In this document: in pieces, positions 3,262 to 50,073 of the stretch
Position numbering within the stretch: position 1 is the stretch's first letter
How the letters are laid out: each line of letters opens with the position of its first letter
Sequence record: OR352954
DNA: 64,000 nucleotides
Strand: one strand, 5' to 3'
Source of the DNA: Escherichia phage AV124
Program-made: the position numbers and the translations under genes
Notes under the pieces: generated by a model
Databases searched by the model: none
What the model saw: only the letters and a program-made list of their open reading frames with translations
What the model was told of the DNA's origin: nothing

Positions 3262-4332
3262 ATGGAAAAGTTTGAAGTGATGCGATGCTATTCCGGTAGC
3301 CTCGCTTATGGCACAAATCTTCCAACTAGTGATGTGGATATTCGGGGTCTGTTCTGCGCCCCACCTAAATTCATCCGCACGCCGTTCTTTAACATCAAAG
3401 AGCAAACCTTGGAAGATGAAGAGGATGGGAAGATTTATGAGTTGACAAACTTCATGAGATTGTTTTCAGAGATGAACCCCAACATCATTGAACTGATGTT
3501 TGTCGATGACAAAGACATTTTACAAACCTCTGAAGTTTATGAATATCTTCGCACAATGGCCCCGGCACTGCTGACCAGTAAGGTAGCGTTCTCCTTCTCT
3601 GGGTATGCGATGGCACAGCTTAAACGTATTCGCGGTCATGATAAGTGGATCAGCAATCCGCAGCCTGAAGAAAAGCCTACGCAAAAAGAGTTCTTCCGAT
3701 TAGTTCACAACTATAGTGAGAACGAATTCCTTGCCGGGGCAATTAAGCACGATCGCTTCATGGAAGCAATGAACAATCTCAACGATATGTGTATCCTTGT
3801 ACCTTATGGGAACGATATCTATGGGGTGATGGAAAACTTCAGTAGCTCAGGGATGTTCAATGCTAACGGTTCAATTCGCCATGTTGACTATCAGCAACTT
3901 TCTGACTCTGACAAGCGGAGAAAACCTGTCTTTATTGTCAAATATTTGGCAGAGGAACACAAACAGGCCAAAGAGAAGCATCGTAACTATTGGACATGGA
4001 AACAGAACCGAAATGAAGTTCGTCACCAGCTCGAAGTTGATTTTGGTTATGACACGAAACATGCGATGCACCTTGTGCGCCTGATGCGTATGGCAGAAGA
4101 GATTCTTTCTGATGGGAAGGTCCTAGTGAAGCGTCCTGATGCTCAGGAACTTCTCGACATCCGGGCAGGTAAGTGGACTCTTGACGAACTGCTCTCTTGG
4201 GCTGATGAGAAGGACCGTTATATTCGTGAGGATCTGTACAAAAAGACACAGCTTCCTAAAATGGCGGATCTTGACCTGTTTGCTAGGGTTCTCATGACGG
4301 CTCAGGATATGTGTTGGAGTAAACTGGTATGA
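3262..4332 (+). CDS. Pol-beta superfamily nucleotidyltransferase
   Basis: N-terminal GS-x9-DVD motif (YSGSLAYGTNLPTSDVDIRG) typical of Pol-beta-fold nucleotidyltransferases; SD GGAGAG upstream. Confidence 0.55.
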   Translation: MEKFEVMRCYSGSLAYGTNLPTSDVDIRGLFCAPPKFIRTPFFNIKEQTLEDEEDGKIYELTNFMRLFSEMNPNIIELMFVDDKDILQTSEVYEYLRTMAPALLTSKVAFSFSGYAMAQLKRIRGHDKWISNPQPEEKPTQKEFFRLVHNYSENEFLAGAIKHDRFMEAMNNLNDMCILVPYGNDIYGVMENFSSSGMFNANGSIRHVDYQQLSDSDKRRKPVFIVKYLAEEHKQAKEKHRNYWTWKQNRNEVRHQLEVDFGYDTKHAMHLVRLMRMAEEILSDGKVLVKRPDAQELLDIRAGKWTLDELLSWADEKDRYIREDLYKKTQLPKMADLDLFARVLMTAQDMCWSKLV

Positions 4333-4541
4333 TTGAAGCACTGGTAGGAATATTTGGTGTTGCATATTCAATCATTGGCGTGATATACTCAATCAGGATG
4401 GAAAAGGACACAGTCCTTAAGCAAATCTATAAAGCCAAGACGGACCGGGACTGGTCTGAAATTTGTTTCACCATCGGTTTTGCATGGCCCTTCGGGGCCT
4501 TAATCCACTATGTTATGAGGAGAAGAAATGCGACAGCTTGA
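4329..4541 (+). CDS. hypothetical small membrane protein
   Basis: ATGA overlap with upstream gene; hydrophobic segments. Confidence 0.4.
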   Translation: MIEALVGIFGVAYSIIGVIYSIRMEKDTVLKQIYKAKTDRDWSEICFTIGFAWPFGALIHYVMRRRNATA

Positions 4542-4704
4542 GTTTATGGGGAGAATGGTAGAACTGGTTTCCGAATGGCAATCAGAATATAAGATGCACA
4601 GGAATCTCTCCGAAGAGCCTGAGAACTGGCCCGACACCAGAGATCAGGAAGATTGGTTGGGTGATTTCTTTGTTTGGCTACAATGTAAGGGGTATACAGT
4701 ATGA
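4528..4704 (+). CDS. hypothetical small protein (58 aa)
   Basis: ATG at 4528 preceded by GAGGAGAAG; below track size cut-off; fills gap between neighbours. Confidence 0.3.
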   Translation: MRQLEFMGRMVELVSEWQSEYKMHRNLSEEPENWPDTRDQEDWLGDFFVWLQCKGYTV

Positions 4705-4937
4705 GCTATGGGCCACTGACCGCAGAGCAGGCTAAGATCCTGCAAGACCGTTATTATGAGCAGCAAGGTATCAAGAAAGTTGTCTGGCCTTCTCCCGGTG
4801 ATGGTGATACCGGAACTGTGAAATGCATGCACGACGCTTGTCCTAATTGTGGTGGCACGGGTGTCAGAAAAGATGGCACTGGTTTATGCGTTCACGGCAT
4901 CTCTTGCCCTTGCCCTAAATGCAGCTTTAAGTGCTGA
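4701..4937 (+). CDS. hypothetical Cys-rich protein (putative zinc-binding)
   Basis: CPNCGG...CVHGISCPCPKCSFKC cysteine cluster. Confidence 0.4.
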   Translation: MSYGPLTAEQAKILQDRYYEQQGIKKVVWPSPGDGDTGTVKCMHDACPNCGGTGVRKDGTGLCVHGISCPCPKCSFKC

Positions 4938-5009
4938 ATCGTCCCTATCTTATATGATAACCCTGTTTTTCATGATAAAATGGATCTATCATTAAGATAG
5001 GAGGCTAGT

Positions 5010-45877: not shown

Positions 45878-45933
45878 TACCAACTGAGAGGTGGGCGACG
45901 GTACAGTCTAGCCCACTTTGAATAGGAGGAATC

Positions 45934-48300
45934 ATTAAAGGTCTGTTTATACTGGATAACGAGGCCGATGGCCTGTTAGACGAAGTAACTAAGTACCATT
46001 GTACTTTGCTGAAAGAATTCGGAGTCAACAACTGGAACCTGTTTTTAGACCCCGCACACCCTGAATATGAAAGCGCTGTAGCCTTTGCCAGGAGCAAGAA
46101 GGATGCTAATCTTACAATTCGTTCATACGACGAGCTGGAAAGCTTCCTGAAGACTTGTAGAGCCATTGCGTGTCACAACCTGTTTGGTTATGACCTGCGC
46201 CTGTGGAAGAAGTTATCGGGCATTGAATATGATATGTTCAAAGACCCGAAGTGCATGGGGACGATTGGGGATACACAGGTAAATCTCTACGACACCCTCT
46301 CTATGAGCCGTGTGCTTTATCCTGACCGTCCATTACCTAACGGTTGCCCTGACTCTGTTCTTAACCCGGTAACCGGGAAGCGAGACCGTGTAGGTCCTCA
46401 TGGCCTGTTGGCCTGGGGCTACCGCGTAGCAAACAAGAAAGTTCAGATCGATGACTGGCGTAACCAACCCTTGTGGGAATACGTTAATCGTGTCTGGGAA
46501 GACGTTTTAATCAACGAGTTAGTATGGCAATCCCTGATCGATGAATCTACAGGTGCTCGCTGGCCTGATGACAAGCAGTTCATGTACAAAGATAAACCGG
46601 AAGGGATGCGGCAGATCAACTGGAAGAACGCGCTACGCCGCCGTATGTTGACTGATTACCTGATGATTGAGCAAGAAATTCAGGGTGTTCCATTCAATAA
46701 GCATGAAGCTGAAAAGCTGAGAGACCGTATTGATGTAATGATGAAAGAGATTGAGGAAGAAGTAGAACCTCAACTCCCGCTCAAAGAGATGACGAAGTCT
46801 CAACAGCCAAAATTCCCTGCTAATCCTTTTGATGGTGCAGGAAGAATTTCCCATCACGGGTGGAATTGGTTAGAATACAAGCTGGGATATCCAGTTAATC
46901 GTGAAGCGCTGGAATTCAAAGGTCCACCGAAGACGGCGTTTAAAGGTAACGGTGATGTAAGTGCAGCAGGGGAAAGATACTGTATCCAGAATGGTGTTGA
47001 AGACCCGGCAGCGATGCCAGACTTCATTAGAAGCCAGATAAAGAAAGAGAATACCCTTGTCCCATTGCCACCAGACCTAATGGAAAAGGCAATTGCCGAT
47101 CTTCGTGCTGGAAAGATGCCAGACCTGATGGTTCCGATGAAGATCTCGAACCAGGACGACATCAAGAAGTACCTGATCCGCGATGCGGGATGGAAACCAA
47201 CGCTCTGGCGTGTTAAAGATGTGACGAAAGACCAGTTCAAAAAGACCCGCGATGATGCGGAGGTTGATGGTCTGGTGCGTAAGTACATCGAAGAACTTGG
47301 AGAGTCCGAGTATAAATCTCTGATTCTTGAGCACTTAAATAATAGTGACGCAAAGTTCAATATCTCGGAAAACAAGTTCGACCATCGTCATGGTTCTGAT
47401 CGTGTTTACGAGGAGGTCTTCAAGAAGTTCCGACGCAAAGCTCGTCAACTGCCGACTTCACCACAGTTGAAGGATAACTTTGGCAAGCTGTGTCCTAACC
47501 TTGAAGTTATCGATGTTCACTTGGCTAAACAGATTGTTAAGTGGCTGTCATTACGTAACCGTCGTTCTGTTCTCGACCCTATTGACGAGGATAAAAACGA
47601 TACAGGGCTGTTGAATCATCCTCGCCTGGCGATTGATGGAAAACTTCCAGCTCGTTTCTCTGGTATCACTAACACCGGGCGTTGTAAGCACACCATTTGT
47701 GCAAACATGCCTAAGCCAGATCCTAAGGTGTTGTTGGGTAAAGAGATGCGTGGTCTCTGGGGTGTGACCGATGAATATTACCAGGTCGGTATCGATGGTT
47801 CTAACCTCGAAGGTATGATCGCGGCATGGGGTGCATATCAGTTCGATGGTGGTGAATACCTCCGTATCATGGAAAGTGGAGATGCCCACGCACGAAACGC
47901 CGAGGCATACACCAAAGCTTCTGGTACTCTGGTAACGCGTAACGGTGGTAAAGGGGTAACCTACGGCATCATGTATGGTGCTCAGGCAGCTAAGATTGCA
48001 GCAATGCTTCACATTTCCCTTGACAAGGCACAGGCGGTAATCGATGCTTTCTGGGATAGTAACTTTGGTTTGAAAGGTCGTAAGGAATGGCTTGAAAACT
48101 TCTGGGAAGCAACGGGTAAACGTTATATCCCTGGTCTCGATGGTCGTAAGATTTGGACCCGTTCTAAGCACTCTCTTCTGAATGCTTTCCAGCAAAACGG
48201 TGGTGCATCTCTATTCGATCTGGTTGGTATCCTGCTTCACTGGGAACTGATCAAACGTGGCTGGTATGATGATGACGTTCGTCGCCTGATTTACTACCAT
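45934..48300 (+). CDS. DNA polymerase, family A (T7 gp5-like), 5' exon; apparent non-canonical start
   Basis: Alignable to T7 gp5 (LDNEADGLLDEVTKYHC exo I region, GPHGLLAWGYRV, motif B KGVTYGIMYG); frame open from 45922 with no ATG/GTG/TTG before conserved exo I motif; exon ends at YYH just before motif C. Confidence 0.75.
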
Positions 48301-49071
48301 AAATAACATTGTGGCTTTGTGAGGTAACTCACATCGAATAACTCCTTTAATTGCTGGGAGGCTAAGGTTGATATTCACTCGATAATAGAGTAAAATACAA
48401 CTATGTTAATCAGCAGCGAAGAGGATCAATGAAAAGTGTAAACTACCACGGATATGTGGTTTACGAAGACGGAACCATTATCGGAAGGCGCGGGAAACCG
48501 ATGCAAAAGGTAGATAATGGGAGGGGCTACCTAATTGTAAGTCTCTACCTTAATAAAAGAACAACGACAAAAGCTGTGCATGTTTTAGTGGCTGAGTGTT
48601 TCGTTCCCAACCCGGATAACCTCCCAGAGGTTGACCACAAGGATGGTGATAAGACCAACAACCACTACACCAACCTCCGCTGGGTAACAAGAGGTAAGAA
48701 CATAGAACATTGCTACACGTTGGAAGGTAGAAGTGCAACAGGTATTGCCAATGCAAACAGTAAGTTGTCAGAGGGAGAAGTGGAGAAAATCTGCTACCTC
48801 TTGCAGGAAGGCTTTAGTCAAGCTGCCATCCGAGACATGGGCTACCCATACGGAACAGTTAGGGCCATCAAGCAGAGACGACAATGGCTGCATATATCAT
48901 CTTCGTATCATTGGTCTTAACGTTCAGAGGCCAGCCGAAAGGCGTAGACGAGCGAGTGCCGTCGAAATGGGGAGCATCCTGAAAAGGATGGTGATATGGT
49001 CCGATCCTACGTGAAAACGTATGGCAACACGTAATGGTGTGGGCGAGATTAACGACCTCGCTAAACTTTTG
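48301..49071 (+). mobile_element. putative group I intron in DNA polymerase gene, carrying HNH homing endonuclease
   Basis: Polymerase frame stops at YYH-K-stop; in-frame C-terminal continuation DEYQ resumes at 49072 and restores motif C HDE; upstream exon ends in T, intron ends in G; internal ORF has own SD. Confidence 0.6.
48429..48920 (+). CDS. HNH homing endonuclease (intron-encoded)
   Basis: EVDHKDGDKTNNHYTNLRWVTRGKN HNH core; SD GAGGA before ATG. Confidence 0.7.
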   Translation: MKSVNYHGYVVYEDGTIIGRRGKPMQKVDNGRGYLIVSLYLNKRTTTKAVHVLVAECFVPNPDNLPEVDHKDGDKTNNHYTNLRWVTRGKNIEHCYTLEGRSATGIANANSKLSEGEVEKICYLLQEGFSQAAIRDMGYPYGTVRAIKQRRQWLHISSSYHWS

Positions 49072-49419
49072 GATGAATACCAGCTCCAGGTTCCTAAGAA
49101 ATACCTGAAGAAGTGGGAGTTCGACACCCTGGAAGAGGCAACAGCTTTCGTCAAAGAATGGGAAGCAAAAGGCCGGGTATTTGACGGACATGAATGGAGA
49201 AAGGCCGTCAAAGATGACAACGGTGATAAAGTCAAGGATGCGGAAGGCAATACAGTCTACGAAGGTATTTTCGGGGACGATGGTAAAATCCACATCCAGT
49301 ATTGCCCTGTTGGTGAAATGGTCGTAAGATGTGTAGAGAAGGCCGCTCGTATCATGGGCAGTCCTGTACATATCACAGGGGCATATCTTACGGGCGCCAA
49401 TTGGGCGCAATGTCATTGA
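49072..49419 (+). CDS. DNA polymerase, family A, 3' exon (motif C to C-terminus)
   Basis: DEYQ...TLEEATAFVKEWEAKGRVFDGHEW...ANWAQCH aligns with T7 gp5 C-terminus (HDEIQ...RTEEIAQVV...WVGDHW...PNWAICH). Confidence 0.65.
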   Translation, partial: DEYQLQVPKKYLKKWEFDTLEEATAFVKEWEAKGRVFDGHEWRKAVKDDNGDKVKDAEGNTVYEGIFGDDGKIHIQYCPVGEMVVRCVEKAARIMGSPVHITGAYLTGANWAQCH

Positions 49420-49437
49420 TATATAAGGATATTTTAT

Positions 49438-50073
49438 ATGGAATTATGGAAAGACATCCCCTCTACGGAGGGGAGATACCAAGTAAGTAATTATGGAAGA
49501 ATAAAAAGGCAACGGTATTCTCGCATAAACAGCAATCAAGCAGCAAGTTGGGAGCAAGTATATGAAACAAAGATATTAAAGCCTTCAAAGGACACACACG
49601 GTTACCTACAAGCTTGTTACCTTGTGGAAGGAGAGAGGACTATAGCCCTGGTCCATAGGCTTGTTGCAGAAGCCTTCCTTGCACCGCCAAGTCAAGAGTT
49701 GATAGATGAATGTATGAAGGCTGGTCACAAAGTGGTTCTTGTCAACCACAAGGATGGAAACCCACTTAACAACCATGTTGACAACCTTGAGTGGTGTACT
49801 CCTTCTTACAACAATGAGTATAGTCCCCAAGATTATTCAAATAGGTCTGGGGATAACTGTAAACATGCGGTTCTTAAAGAATCTGATGTTGACAAAATAC
49901 TGGAACTACGTGGTAAAATGAGTCAGCAGGCCATCGCGGATATGTTCGATGTGAAACAGATCACTATCAGCAACATTTTCACCGGAAGGTCTTGGTCTTC
50001 TTATACCGGAATACCTCGCAAAGAGCGTAACAAAGGAAAACGTGCAGCTAAGACCAAACTGTTATCACAATAG
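49438..50073 (+). CDS. HNH homing endonuclease (free-standing, NUMOD-like N-terminus)
   Basis: IPSTEGRYQVSNYGRIKR N-terminal module; HNH core VNHKDGNPLNNHVDNLEW. Confidence 0.7.
   Translation: MELWKDIPSTEGRYQVSNYGRIKRQRYSRINSNQAASWEQVYETKILKPSKDTHGYLQACYLVEGERTIALVHRLVAEAFLAPPSQELIDECMKAGHKVVLVNHKDGNPLNNHVDNLEWCTPSYNNEYSPQDYSNRSGDNCKHAVLKESDVDKILELRGKMSQQAIADMFDVKQITISNIFTGRSWSSYTGIPRKERNKGKRAAKTKLLSQ

What the first reader, a model, noticed from the sequence alone, without database searches (positions are those of the whole stretch)
48301..49071. DNA polymerase gene interrupted at catalytic motif C by an HNH-encoding putative group I intron
The T7 gp5-like polymerase frame ends ...LIYYH-K-stop at 48304-48306, exactly where family A polymerases carry the essential HDE motif C. 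An in-frame continuation DEYQ...ANWAQCH at 49072-49419 aligns with the T7 gp5 C-terminus; joining 48300 to 49072 restores YYHDEYQ. The upstream exon ends in T and the intervening sequence ends in G, as expected for group I splicing, and the intervening 771 nt carries a complete HNH homing endonuclease ORF with its own SD.
Basis: partly seen in the sequence, partly recalled or inferred. Interest (0 to 1): 0.7.

Follow-up and report, generated by a model that had tools for sequence, protein, structure and literature searches.

The report
Self-splicing intron splitting phage DNA polymerase
The phage's DNA polymerase gene is interrupted, exactly inside its catalytic His-Asp-Glu motif, by a 771-base mobile group I intron carrying its own HNH nuclease gene; this is a real but well-known kind of selfish element, already shown to splice in a related phage.

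Summary
Window 48301-49071 (771 nt) is an insertion between the His codon (48298-48300) and the Asp codon (49072-49074) of polymerase motif C. Removing it gives a 2643-nt gene collinear with the uninterrupted polymerase of Klebsiella phage KB57. The insert is a group I intron of subgroup IA2. It has a U·G wobble at the 5' splice site, a terminal G, and helices P1-P10 with the P3/P7 pseudoknot and P7.1-GUA-P7.2. Across 11 homologous introns 97% of cells pair and 29 of 66 pairs show compensatory changes. Rfam scores the window below threshold (39 bits, E=3e-8) only because of the ORF; ORF-less homologues at the same site score 70-76 bits. The I-HmuI-like HNH gene loops out of P6a, whose stem buries its ribosome-binding site and start codon. 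The kind is already known. The homologous intron in Pectobacterium phage CB7 splices by RT-PCR, and T7-like phages ΦI/W31 carry an IA2 intron with HNH in P6a at the same polymerase site. The intron is 771/771 identical in a Salmonella phage whose flanking exons differ by 13-17%. It also appears as a precise insertion in lab-evolved Klebsiella phages. Interest is low to moderate.

The parts
46006..48300 (+). Exon 1 of the T7-gp5-like family A DNA polymerase (765 codons, TTG start; ends with His codon CAT 48298-48300 of motif C)
   Evidence: ORF list; Pfam DNA_pol_A hit 30.9 bits, below the curated cut-off of 34.3; the family A assignment rests on the T7 gp5 alignment; collinear with KB57 CDS
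48301..49071 (+). Group I intron, subgroup IA2, 771 nt
   Evidence: Exact indel relative to the KB57 intron-less allele; Rfam RF00028 39.3 bits, E=2.9e-8; covariation
48304..48306 (+). UAA stop that ends translation of unspliced exon 1 two codons into the intron (AAA/AAG UAA in all 13 homologues inspected)
   Evidence: Sequence
48297..48314 (+). P1: CCAU|AA (48297-48302) pairs with the internal guide UUGUGG (48309-48314); U48300·G48311 wobble marks the 5' splice site. CAUU 48307-48310 can pair with exon-2 GAUG (P10)
   Evidence: Rfam alignment; RNAalifold; MFE fold; invariant in 11 sequences
48318..48333 (+). P2 hairpin, 6 bp with GNRA-type loop GUAA
   Evidence: All 6 pairs show compensatory changes
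48342..48346 (+). P3 5' strand (pairs with 48970-48974)
   Evidence: 3 of 5 pairs compensatory
48352..48415 (+). P4-P5 domain: P4 48352-57/48410-15, P5 48360-62/48405-07, distal P5a-c 48366-48402
   Evidence: MFE fold of the window core; P4/P5 counts blurred by a one-base bulge that MAFFT misplaces in 5 sequences
48368..48396 (+). Putative intron-internal sigma-70-like promoter TTGATA-17-TAAAAT in the P5 extension, upstream of the HNH gene (inferred, weak)
   Evidence: Scan (count not above chance). The same position holds TTGAYA-17-TAnnAT in PBES02, CR9, A5-4 and PVP-SE1 and a weaker match (TTGACT-17-TAAAAG) in FV3. phiTE/CB7 have a stronger TTGACA-16-TATGAT further downstream in a longer P5 region. 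PVP-SE1's depositors annotated a promoter there
48416..48431 (+). P6 5' strand (48416-18) and P6a 5' strand (48422-31, AGGAUCAAUG), which contains the Shine-Dalgarno GAGGA (48421-25) and the AUG (48429-31) of the HNH gene
   Evidence: Duplex prediction and covarying P6a in PBES02/CR9, A5-4, FV3/FFH2, KP12, SYGMH1; P6 pairs compensatory
48429..48920 (+). HNH homing endonuclease gene (163 aa) looped out of P6a
   Evidence: Pfam HNH_3 39.6 bits vs cut-off 24.8; I-HmuI 1U3E E=2.3e-9; PHROG 59 E=8e-40
48909..48923 (+). P6a 3' strand (48909-18, CAUUGGUCUU, last codons of the HNH ORF) and P6 3' strand (48921-23)
48927..48933 (+). P7 5' strand (G48927, bulged A48928, GGCCA 48929-33); pairs with 48997-49002, forming the pseudoknot with P3
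   Evidence: 100% of cells paired, one compensatory pair U-A/C-G
48934..48963 (+). P7.1 (48934-36/48941-43), invariant GUA linker (48944-46), P7.2 (48947-53/48958-63): the subgroup IA2 signature
   Evidence: criterion as stated in PMC3428280
48970..48974 (+). P3 3' strand
48975..48990 (+). P8 hairpin
   Evidence: 5 of 6 pairs compensatory
48997..49002 (+). P7 3' strand (UGGUCC)
49006..49062 (+). P9 (49006-12/49017-24), P9.1 (49028-30/49037-39), P9.2 (49042-47/49057-62)
49071..49071 (+). Terminal guanosine (omega-G) at the 3' splice site
   Evidence: Sequence; conserved in all homologues
49072..49419 (+). Exon 2 of the DNA polymerase (starts with Asp-Glu of motif C; 115 codons plus stop)

Best explanation
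Window 48301-49071 is a mobile group I intron of subgroup IA2 in the essential family A DNA polymerase gene of a Mydovirus-like Klebsiella phage (Vequintavirinae). It sits between the His and Asp codons of catalytic motif C. Inferred mechanism, standard for group I introns: the pre-mRNA folds into the P1-P10 ribozyme. An external guanosine attacks after U48300 (U·G wobble in P1). The freed exon-1 3'-OH then attacks after omega-G49071, with exon 2 aligned by P10. This restores ...YYH-DEYQ... and an 880-aa polymerase. Unspliced RNA yields only a truncated, catalytically dead exon-1 product, because of the UAA two codons into the intron. The 163-aa I-HmuI-like HNH endonuclease encoded in the P6a loop is inferred to cut or nick intron-less polymerase alleles during mixed infection, so that repair copies the intron in (homing). 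Its Shine-Dalgarno and AUG are paired within the P6a stem, which should limit its translation from the folded intron. A possible internal promoter lies in the P5 extension. Shown here: the exact boundaries, the conserved and covarying core, the identity of the ORF, and horizontal spread. Shown in the literature for the homologue: in vivo splicing. Inferred: splicing of this very copy, endonuclease activity and specificity, and the regulation.
For: 1. Exact, unambiguous 771-nt indel relative to the uninterrupted KB57 polymerase; the joined exons are 2643 nt in both.
2. RF00028 is the only Rfam hit in the 64-kb window (39.3 bits, E=1.6e-6 for the window, 2.9e-8 for the region). ORF-less homologues at the same site score 75.6, 72.5 and 69.8 bits against a gathering score of 50.
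3. On 11 homologous introns, RNAalifold predicts P1, P2, P3, P6, P7.2, P8, P9, P9.1 and P9.2 on its own, with 26 compensatory pairs.
4. My full named structure, including the P3/P7 pseudoknot, has 97.4% of cells paired, against 35-43% when partners are slid. 29 of 66 pairs have changes on both sides, and 0 of 500 shuffles reach this.
5. The window's own core folds to P1, P2, P4-P5, P7.1, P7.2, P8 and P9-P9.2 with z=-3.4.
6. P7.1 and P7.2 are joined by an invariant GUA, the IA2 criterion.
7. HNH_3 domain and similarity to I-HmuI.
8. P6a closes the ORF loop and covaries between HEG lineages.
9. Splicing of the homologous CB7 intron (HNH CB7_50 between polymerase CB7_49 and CB7_51) was shown by RT-PCR (PMC7344957). 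That intron is row 'CB7' of my alignment.
10. Mobility: the intron is 771/771 identical in Salmonella phage SSE121, although the flanking exons differ at 43/330 and 58/345 positions. In addition, K54_rec1 equals its ancestor K54lambda1.1.1 over 4215+3509 nt plus exactly this 771-nt insertion.
Against: - No transcript data exist for this phage.
- The window's Rfam score is below the curated gathering score (39.3 vs 50), and Rfam's own alignment misplaces the ORF insert.
- P1, P10 and most of P7 are invariant, so they carry no covariation evidence.
- I trimmed the ORF inserts by hand before aligning, and I partly derived the structure from these same sequences. This flatters the slid-partner control.
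- An in-frame ATG at 49021 opens an ORF that runs into exon 2 and is annotated as a separate 'DNA polymerase' CDS in GenBank relatives.
- Endonuclease activity and cleavage site are untested.
Confidence: 0.93

Rival explanations
1. Split polymerase gene. A free-standing HNH gene has cut the polymerase into two cistrons, translated separately (766 aa ending ...YYHK, and 132 aa from ATG 49021), which assemble without RNA splicing. Reported precedents are the nrdA gene of Aeromonas phage Aeh1 split by mobE and the non-spliced CB7_245 case cited in PMC7344957.
For: ORF 49021..49419 starts with ATG in frame with exon 2. GenBank relatives annotate two 'DNA polymerase' CDSs. PMC7344957 reports one HNH-interrupted gene in CB7 that did not splice.
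Against: - About 270 nt of non-coding sequence around the ORF is conserved as a covarying group I core.
- ORF-less versions of the insertion persist at the same site and score 70-76 bits on RF00028. A bare HEG insertion would not explain this.
- ATG 49021 lies inside the P9 stem, has no Shine-Dalgarno upstream (GUGAAAACGU), and is not conserved. In SYGMH1 the annotated start is a TTG made of the last three intron bases.
- The break would separate His from Asp-Glu of the catalytic motif.
- The homologous CB7 intron does splice.
Confidence: 0.03
2. A decayed, splicing-defective intron. The phage carries a dead polymerase allele, or splicing depends entirely on a host or phage factor.
For: The Rfam score is below the gathering threshold. 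No direct splicing data exist for this copy.
Against: - Every core helix is intact in the window.
- The sequence is 100% identical in at least ten deposited records, eight distinct phage genomes, of viable phages from two genera.
- It was newly fixed in plaque-forming evolved phages K54_rec1-6 (PMC12654880). This requires a working polymerase.
- The low score is explained by the 497-nt ORF insert.
Confidence: 0.03
3. An intein or another protein-level insertion.
For: Inteins often sit in polymerase active sites, and CB7 has inteins in other replication genes.
Against: The reading frame closes two codons into the insert (UAA 48304-48306). The HNH ORF is in a different register with its own start. 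No Hint domain was found.
Confidence: 0

Closest known systems
Group I intron with HNH CB7_50 in the DNA polymerase of Pectobacterium phage vB_PatM_CB7 (Vequintavirinae, Certrevirus); Antibiotics 2020, PMC7344957
   Same: Same phage subfamily and the same insertion site (...YYH|DEYQ...). The ribozyme core is homologous and alignable (row CB7 of alignment A1; 5' 71 nt and 3' about 150 nt 90-94% identical). In vivo splicing was shown by RT-PCR.
   Different: CB7 carries a different HNH gene (137 aa, 35% identical over 95 aa). It starts in the P5 region and reads through P4'/P6, behind a strong TTGACA-16-TATGAT promoter-like site. The paper classed it as group I only because it contains an HNH gene; it reported no core structure.
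[quoted passage not shown]
   Same: Family A T7-type polymerase, subgroup IA2, HNH ORF inserted in P6a, and RBS thought to limit HEG expression. Inserted at 'site 881, E. coli numbering' according to PMC3428280. By my knowledge of Pol I (His881-Asp882-Glu883) this is the same His|Asp position.
   Different: Different phage family (podoviruses of about 40 kb vs about 145-kb myoviruses). I could not obtain the paper or AY769989/AY769990. Sequence homology of the two intron cores is therefore untested, and the site equivalence rests on one sentence plus recalled numbering.
Phage T4 td intron (IA2) encoding I-TevI
   Same: IA2 architecture with P7.1/P7.2, endonuclease ORF looped out of P6a, translation signals of the ORF sequestered in RNA structure, and the ORF served by its own promoter (my own knowledge, not tested here).
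   Different: Different host gene (thymidylate synthase) and a GIY-YIG rather than HNH endonuclease.
SPO1/SP82/Bastille and Pf-WMP3 DNA polymerase introns encoding I-HmuI, I-HmuII, I-BasI, I-PfoP3I
   Same: Group I introns in family A phage polymerases that encode nicking HNH endonucleases. The window's HNH protein matches I-HmuI (1U3E) at E=2.3e-9.
   Different: Inserted at a different site (674 in E. coli numbering, fingers subdomain; PMC3428280).

Membership tests
Group I intron (Rfam RF00028) | Significant match to the covariance model | tested here: met
   39.3 bits, E=2.9e-8 (region) and 1.6e-6 (whole window); the only Rfam hit in the window. This is below the curated gathering score of 50 because a 497-nt ORF interrupts P6. 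Homologues at the same site without the ORF score 75.6, 72.5 and 69.8 bits.
Group I intron (Rfam RF00028) | 5' splice site after a U that forms a U·G wobble in P1 with the internal guide sequence; 3' terminal G | tested here: met
   U48300·G48311 within CCAUAA/UUGUGG; G49071. Boundaries fixed independently by the intron-less allele.
Group I intron (Rfam RF00028) | Conserved core P3-P4-P5-P6-P7-P8-P9 with P3/P7 pseudoknot, supported by compensatory changes | tested here: met
   66 pairs, 97.4% of cells paired, 29 pairs with changes on both sides; slid controls 35-43% paired. P4/P5 only 84.8% paired because of a misaligned bulge. P7 has one compensatory pair; the rest is invariant.
Group I intron (Rfam RF00028) | P10 pairing of the 3' exon with the guide sequence | tested here: inconclusive
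   GAUG 49072-75 can pair with CAUU 48307-10 (4 bp including one G·U), but all positions are invariant, so there is no covariation evidence.
Group I intron (Rfam RF00028) | Excision restores an intact host gene | tested here: met
   Joined exons are collinear with the KB57 polymerase, 880 aa, and HDE is restored.
Group I intron (Rfam RF00028) | Guanosine-dependent (self-)splicing | not testable with these tools
   Only indirect: RT-PCR splicing of the homologous CB7 intron (PMC7344957).
Subgroup IA2 | Extra helices P7.1 and P7.2 between P7 and P3', linked by G-U-A | tested here: met
   P7.1 48934-43, GUA 48944-46 (invariant in 11 sequences), P7.2 48947-63 with 4 compensatory pairs. Criterion as worded in PMC3428280.
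HNH homing endonuclease (I-HmuI-like) | HNH catalytic domain above the curated threshold | tested here: met
   PF13392 HNH_3 39.6 bits vs 24.8. The motif vdHkdGdktNNhytNLrwvt aligns with I-HmuI 1U3E.
HNH homing endonuclease (I-HmuI-like) | Cleaves or nicks the intron-less allele near the insertion site and drives homing | not testable with these tools
   Indirect evidence only. There is a precise gain of the 771 nt in evolved phage K54_rec1 relative to its ancestor. The intron is also 100% identical across phages whose exons differ by 13-17%.
Intein | In-frame insertion translated with the host protein | tested here: not met
   UAA stop two codons into the insert; no Hint domain.
Split gene with separately translated halves (Aeh1 nrdA/mobE type) | Conserved translation start for the downstream half and no ribozyme | tested here: not met
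   ATG 49021 lacks a Shine-Dalgarno, lies in P9 and is not conserved. A ribozyme core is present.

The most novel reading that the evidence does not exclude
The deposited genomes of a published 12-phage evolution experiment (PMC12654880) appear to record this intron homing in real time. All six evolved 'K54_rec' phages carry the 771-nt intron. K54_rec1 is otherwise 100% identical to its ancestor (phage H, K54lambda1.1.1) over 7.7 kb around the site. The same 771 nt is present, base for base, in the co-evolving Mydovirus G (K45PH128C2). The paper, however, states that the acquired endonuclease genes were not shared with G and attributes them to an unknown prophage. If G was the donor, flanking markers limit co-conversion to under 61 nt upstream and under 54 nt downstream. 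That implies an active endonuclease cutting very close to the insertion site. Together with the three different endonuclease cargoes found in three different loops of the same ribozyme chassis (P6a HNH; P5-to-P6 HNH in phiTE/CB7; LAGLIDADG in P7.1 of PVP-SE1), this would make the family a tractable natural system for studying intron/HEG modular evolution.
Probability: 0.55. Interest if true: 0.4.

Novelty: already known. Interest (0 to 1): 0.25.

Why it matters
For annotation: the two 'DNA polymerase' CDSs and the 'HNH endonuclease' in this phage and in dozens of Vequintavirinae records are really one spliced 880-aa polymerase gene plus an intron-encoded homing endonuclease. Polymerase-based phylogenies and pangenomes should join the exons.

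For biology: it is one more case of a selfish intron parked in the most conserved codons of an essential gene. It shows unusually clear signs of recent cross-genus transfer (Klebsiella, Salmonella and Cronobacter phages) and of cargo swapping. It does not open a new question. The mechanism, the site and the intron class have been described since 2004, and splicing of the homologue was shown in 2020.

Tried and rejected
- **Rfam's ORF placement.** Rfam's own alignment puts the long insert between the P7 5' strand and P3'. Comparison with ORF-less homologues shows the true P7 5' strand is GGCCA 48929-33, after the ORF, and that the ORF sits in P6a. I rejected Rfam's placement.
- **P4/P5 counts.** MAFFT misplaces a one-base P4 bulge in the KP12/PVP-SE1/rV5-type sequences, which lowers the P4/P5 counts. 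I did not build a covariance model to realign, because the length forecast was too long. The P4/P5 figures are therefore an underestimate.
- **Co-conversion in the window.** I looked for co-conversion tracts in the window by comparing flanks with SSE121, KB57 and others. No tract is visible; exon 2 of the window is simply about 8% diverged from all Klebsiella relatives.
- **Promoter scan.** The number of sites is not above the shuffled expectation. The internal promoter rests only on positional conservation and on the PVP-SE1 depositors' annotation.
- **Missing sources.** I could not retrieve Bonocora & Shub 2004 or accession AY769990. Homology to the ΦI/W31 introns is therefore unverified.
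- **Unreliable annotation.** The annotations of OY978796.1 and OY979426.1 under the match are plainly out of register with the sequence and I ignored them.
- **Intein and group II readings.** I considered and rejected both on the sequence (stop codon after two codons; the only Rfam hit in the window is group I, RF00028).

Full report
**Observation**

- A long ORF, 46006..48306, ends ...DDDVRRLIYYHK*.
- A 163-aa ORF lies at 48429..48920.
- A third ORF, 49021..49419, has a frame that from 49072 onward reads DEYQLQVPKKYL...ANWAQCH.

phmmer against PDB chains finds T7 DNA polymerase as the best solved relative (E=6.5e-19). It aligns 'rrliyyHDEyq' of the joined protein with T7 'aymawvHDEiq', that is H653-D654-E655, motif C.

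**Exact boundaries**

A megablast of 47800-49600 against deposited phage genomes shows the window is a Mydovirus-like Klebsiella phage of the Vequintavirinae. Many close relatives match in two pieces with 771 nt missing.

Klebsiella phage KB57 has one uninterrupted 2643-nt polymerase CDS. Window 46006-48300 plus 49072-49419 is also 2643 nt and aligns with it without a gap, at 97.9% identity. The 45 nt before the junction and the first 32 nt after it are identical. The junction cannot be shifted by even one base. The insertion is therefore exactly 48301..49071. It lies between the His codon CAT and the Asp codon GAT.

**What the insertion is**

Rfam finds a single family in the whole 64-kb window: the group I intron model RF00028 at 48291..49023. 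It scores 39.3 bits, with E=2.9e-8 for the region and 1.6e-6 for the window.

This is below the curated gathering score of 50. The cause is the 497-nt ORF insert. Homologues at the same polymerase site that lack the ORF score well above 50:
- SYGMH1: 75.6 bits
- JLBYU08: 72.5 bits
- KP12: 69.8 bits
- PVP-SE1: 54.4 bits

I collected the same-site insertions from 13 phages. I removed the ORF-bearing loops using conserved anchors and aligned 11 distinct cores.

Three independent lines support the structure.
- RNAalifold predicted P1, P2, P3, P6, P7.2, P8, P9, P9.1 and P9.2 on its own, with 26 pairs changed on both sides.
- I then named a complete group I structure, including P4, P5, P7.1 and the P7 strand that forms the pseudoknot with P3. 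On it, 97.4% of 723 cells pair and 29 of 66 pairs have compensatory changes. The covariation score is 0.38, against 0.18±0.01 in shuffles (0 of 500 reach it). Only 35-43% of cells pair when the 3' partners are slid by 1-3 columns.
- The window's own trimmed core folds by energy alone into P1, P2, P4-P5(a-c), P7.1, P7.2, P8, P9, P9.1 and P9.2, with z=-3.4.

Caveats:
- I chose the trimming and part of the structure from these same sequences.
- The sequences are related, so the shuffle control is not a probability.
- P1, P10 and most of P7 are invariant.
- P4/P5 is undercounted because of a misaligned bulge.

**Anatomy in window coordinates**

| Element | Coordinates | Note |
|---|---|---|
| P1 | 48297-48302 / 48309-48314 | Splice-site U48300·G48311 wobble |
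| P2 | 48318-23 / 48328-33 | GUAA loop |
| P3 | 48342-46 / 48970-74 | |
| P4 | 48352-57 / 48410-15 | |
| P5 | 48360-62 / 48405-07 | With a distal extension |
| P6 | 48416-18 / 48921-23 | |
| P6a | 48422-31 / 48909-18 | |
| P7 | 48927, 48929-33 / 48997-49002 | |
| P7.1 | 48934-36 / 48941-43 | |
| GUA linker | 48944-46 | Invariant |
| P7.2 | 48947-53 / 48958-63 | |
| P8 | 48975-80 / 48985-90 | |
| P9 | 49006-12 / 49017-24 | |
| P9.1 | 49028-30 / 49037-39 | |
| P9.2 | 49042-47 / 49057-62 | |
| omega-G | 49071 | |
| P10 (possible) | exon-2 GAUG 49072-75 with CAUU 48307-10 | |

P7.1 and P7.2 joined by GUA is the criterion used for subgroup IA2 in PMC3428280.

**The ORF**

The 163-aa product has a Pfam HNH_3 domain (39.6 bits, cut-off 24.8). 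It matches PHROG 59 'HNH endonuclease' (E=8e-40). It also matches the solved nicking homing endonuclease I-HmuI of the SPO1 polymerase intron (1U3E, E=2.3e-9).

The ORF loops out of P6a. The 5' strand of that helix, AGGAUCAAUG, contains most of the Shine-Dalgarno GAGGA and the AUG. It pairs over 10 bp with CAUUGGUCUU, the last codons of the ORF.

The same closing helix exists with different, compensating sequences in PBES02/CR9, A5-4, FV3/FFH2, and in the ORF-less KP12 and SYGMH1. I infer that the folded intron limits translation of its endonuclease, as is described for other phage introns.

A sigma-70-like TTGATA-17-TAAAAT lies in the P5 extension (48368-96). The number of such sites is not above chance. 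However, a similar motif occupies the same place in several divergent HEG-bearing relatives, and PVP-SE1's depositors annotated a promoter there. This part is tentative.

**Rival: a gene split into two polypeptides**

GenBank relatives annotate two polymerase CDSs, and the window has an in-frame ATG at 49021. Several facts argue against separate translation:
- That ATG sits in the P9 stem, has no ribosome-binding site and is not conserved.
- ORF-less ribozyme-only insertions persist at the site.
- The break would separate His from Asp-Glu of the active site.
- For the homologous intron of Pectobacterium phage CB7 (HNH CB7_50 between polymerase parts CB7_49 and CB7_51, which is locus L011 in my alignment), RT-PCR showed a shorter product from cDNA than from DNA (PMC7344957).

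An intein is excluded by the UAA two codons into the insert.

**Mobility**

The 771 nt are 100% identical in Salmonella phages SSE121 and GEC_vB_MG, in Klebsiella phage K45PH128C2 and in K54_rec1-6. They are 98.8% identical in Cronobacter phage Csp-D17.

Over the adjoining exons, the window and SSE121 differ at 43/330 and 58/345 positions. At that divergence, about 100 differences would be expected in the intron. This indicates recent horizontal transfer between genera.

The ribozyme chassis also carries different cargo in different loops:
- the same HNH lineage in P6a (54-78% aa identity in CR9, PBES02, A5-4, FV3, FFH2);
- an unrelated-looking HNH (34-35% over 95 aa) that starts in P5 in phiTE/CB7;
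- a LAGLIDADG gene in P7.1 of PVP-SE1;
- nothing at all in KP12, SYGMH1 and JLBYU08.

**A by-product: possible real-time homing in a published experiment**

K54_rec1 is one of six recombinants of 'phage H' (K54lambda1.1.1) isolated in a published evolution experiment. It is 100% identical to the ancestor over 4215 nt upstream and 3509 nt downstream of the site, and differs only by the precise 771-nt insertion.

The co-evolving 'phage G' of that experiment is K45PH128C2 (Table 1 of PMC12654880). Its deposited genome contains the identical 771 nt. The paper states that the endonuclease genes gained by H were not shared with G. For this element that does not fit the deposited sequences.

If G was the donor, the nearest G/H differences (-61, +54) were not co-converted. 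The annotation of the two OY records is out of register with their sequence, which may explain the oversight. An unknown third Mydovirus donor cannot be excluded.

**Comparison with what is known**

According to PMC3428280, the T7-like phages ΦI and W31 have IA2 introns in their polymerase genes with an HNH ORF in P6a, inserted at 'site 881' in E. coli numbering. From general knowledge of Pol I, His881-Asp882-Glu883 is motif C, so this is the same position. I could not obtain that paper or the sequences, so homology of the cores is untested.

The SPO1/SP82/Bastille/Pf-WMP3 polymerase introns sit at another site (674). Within the Vequintavirinae the CB7 study already reports the intron and its splicing.

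**Verdict**

The finding is real and correctly interpreted, but it is an already known kind of element.
- Novelty: already known.
- Interest: 0.25.
- Confidence that this is a functional, spliced IA2 group I intron with an intron-encoded HNH homing endonuclease: 0.93.

Noticed in passing
window 47966-47968 (empty site); L002 3172-3885, L017 3168-3882, L007 1660-2331: A second intron site lies about 333 nt upstream in the same polymerase gene. It is empty in the window but occupied by a roughly 715-nt group I intron (RF00028 39.1 bits, E about 2e-7) with a 149-aa HNH gene in K54lambda1.1.1, K54_rec1-6, KP12, KpS11 and SSE121.
   Followed up: partly
window 49438-50073 (+): A free-standing HNH gene (211 aa; NUMOD4 + HNH_3 + weak HTH) starts 19 nt after the polymerase stop. 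It is absent at this place in KB57 and K45PH128C2 (window 49416-50069 has no counterpart there). A gene annotated 'HNH endonuclease' occupies the corresponding place in K54 phages (about 89% nt identity over the region). This looks like a second, independent mobile endonuclease next to the polymerase.
   Followed up: partly
L002 (PQ569687.1) 4216-4986 vs L017 (OY979426.1) 4215/4216 vs L018 (OY978796.1) 3502-4272: Lab-evolved K54_rec1 equals its ancestor (phage H) plus exactly the 771-nt intron. The identical intron is in co-evolving phage G, although PMC12654880 says the acquired endonucleases were not shared with G. This may be an unrecognised real-time homing event.
   Followed up: partly
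L017 (OY979426.1) and L018 (OY978796.1): The deposited annotations of these two records are out of register with the sequence. The DNA polymerase region is labelled PhoH-like, DprA-like, endolysin, ribose-phosphate pyrophosphokinase and so on, and most features are flagged partial or pseudo.
   Followed up: no
L002 626-1135; window about 45931-45939: K54 phages have an extra HNH endonuclease gene between the primase/helicase gene and the polymerase gene. The window and KB57 lack it (alignment breaks at window 45931/45939).
   Followed up: no
one search hits H139-H150 (Vibrio phage K412, Pseudomonas phage SPA01, Aeromonas phages phiA009/4L372D, Pseudaeromonas KLEP7): Parts of the intron core (especially P1-P3 with the guide sequence) match inside or beside DNA polymerase genes of phages outside the Vequintavirinae. 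The same-site intron family may therefore be much more widely spread.
   Followed up: no
window 49072-49419 vs KB57, K54, KP12: Exon 2 of the window is about 8% diverged (26-28 of 345 nt) from all close Klebsiella relatives, whereas the 330 nt of exon 1 next to the intron differ by 0-2%. This suggests a recombination boundary at or near the intron. The source of this exon-2 allele was not identified.
   Followed up: partly
window 48733-49014 (+): A 93-aa ORF in another frame overlaps the end of the HNH gene and the P7-P9 core. It is seen only in the near-identical Csp-D17 copy and is most likely spurious.
   Followed up: no
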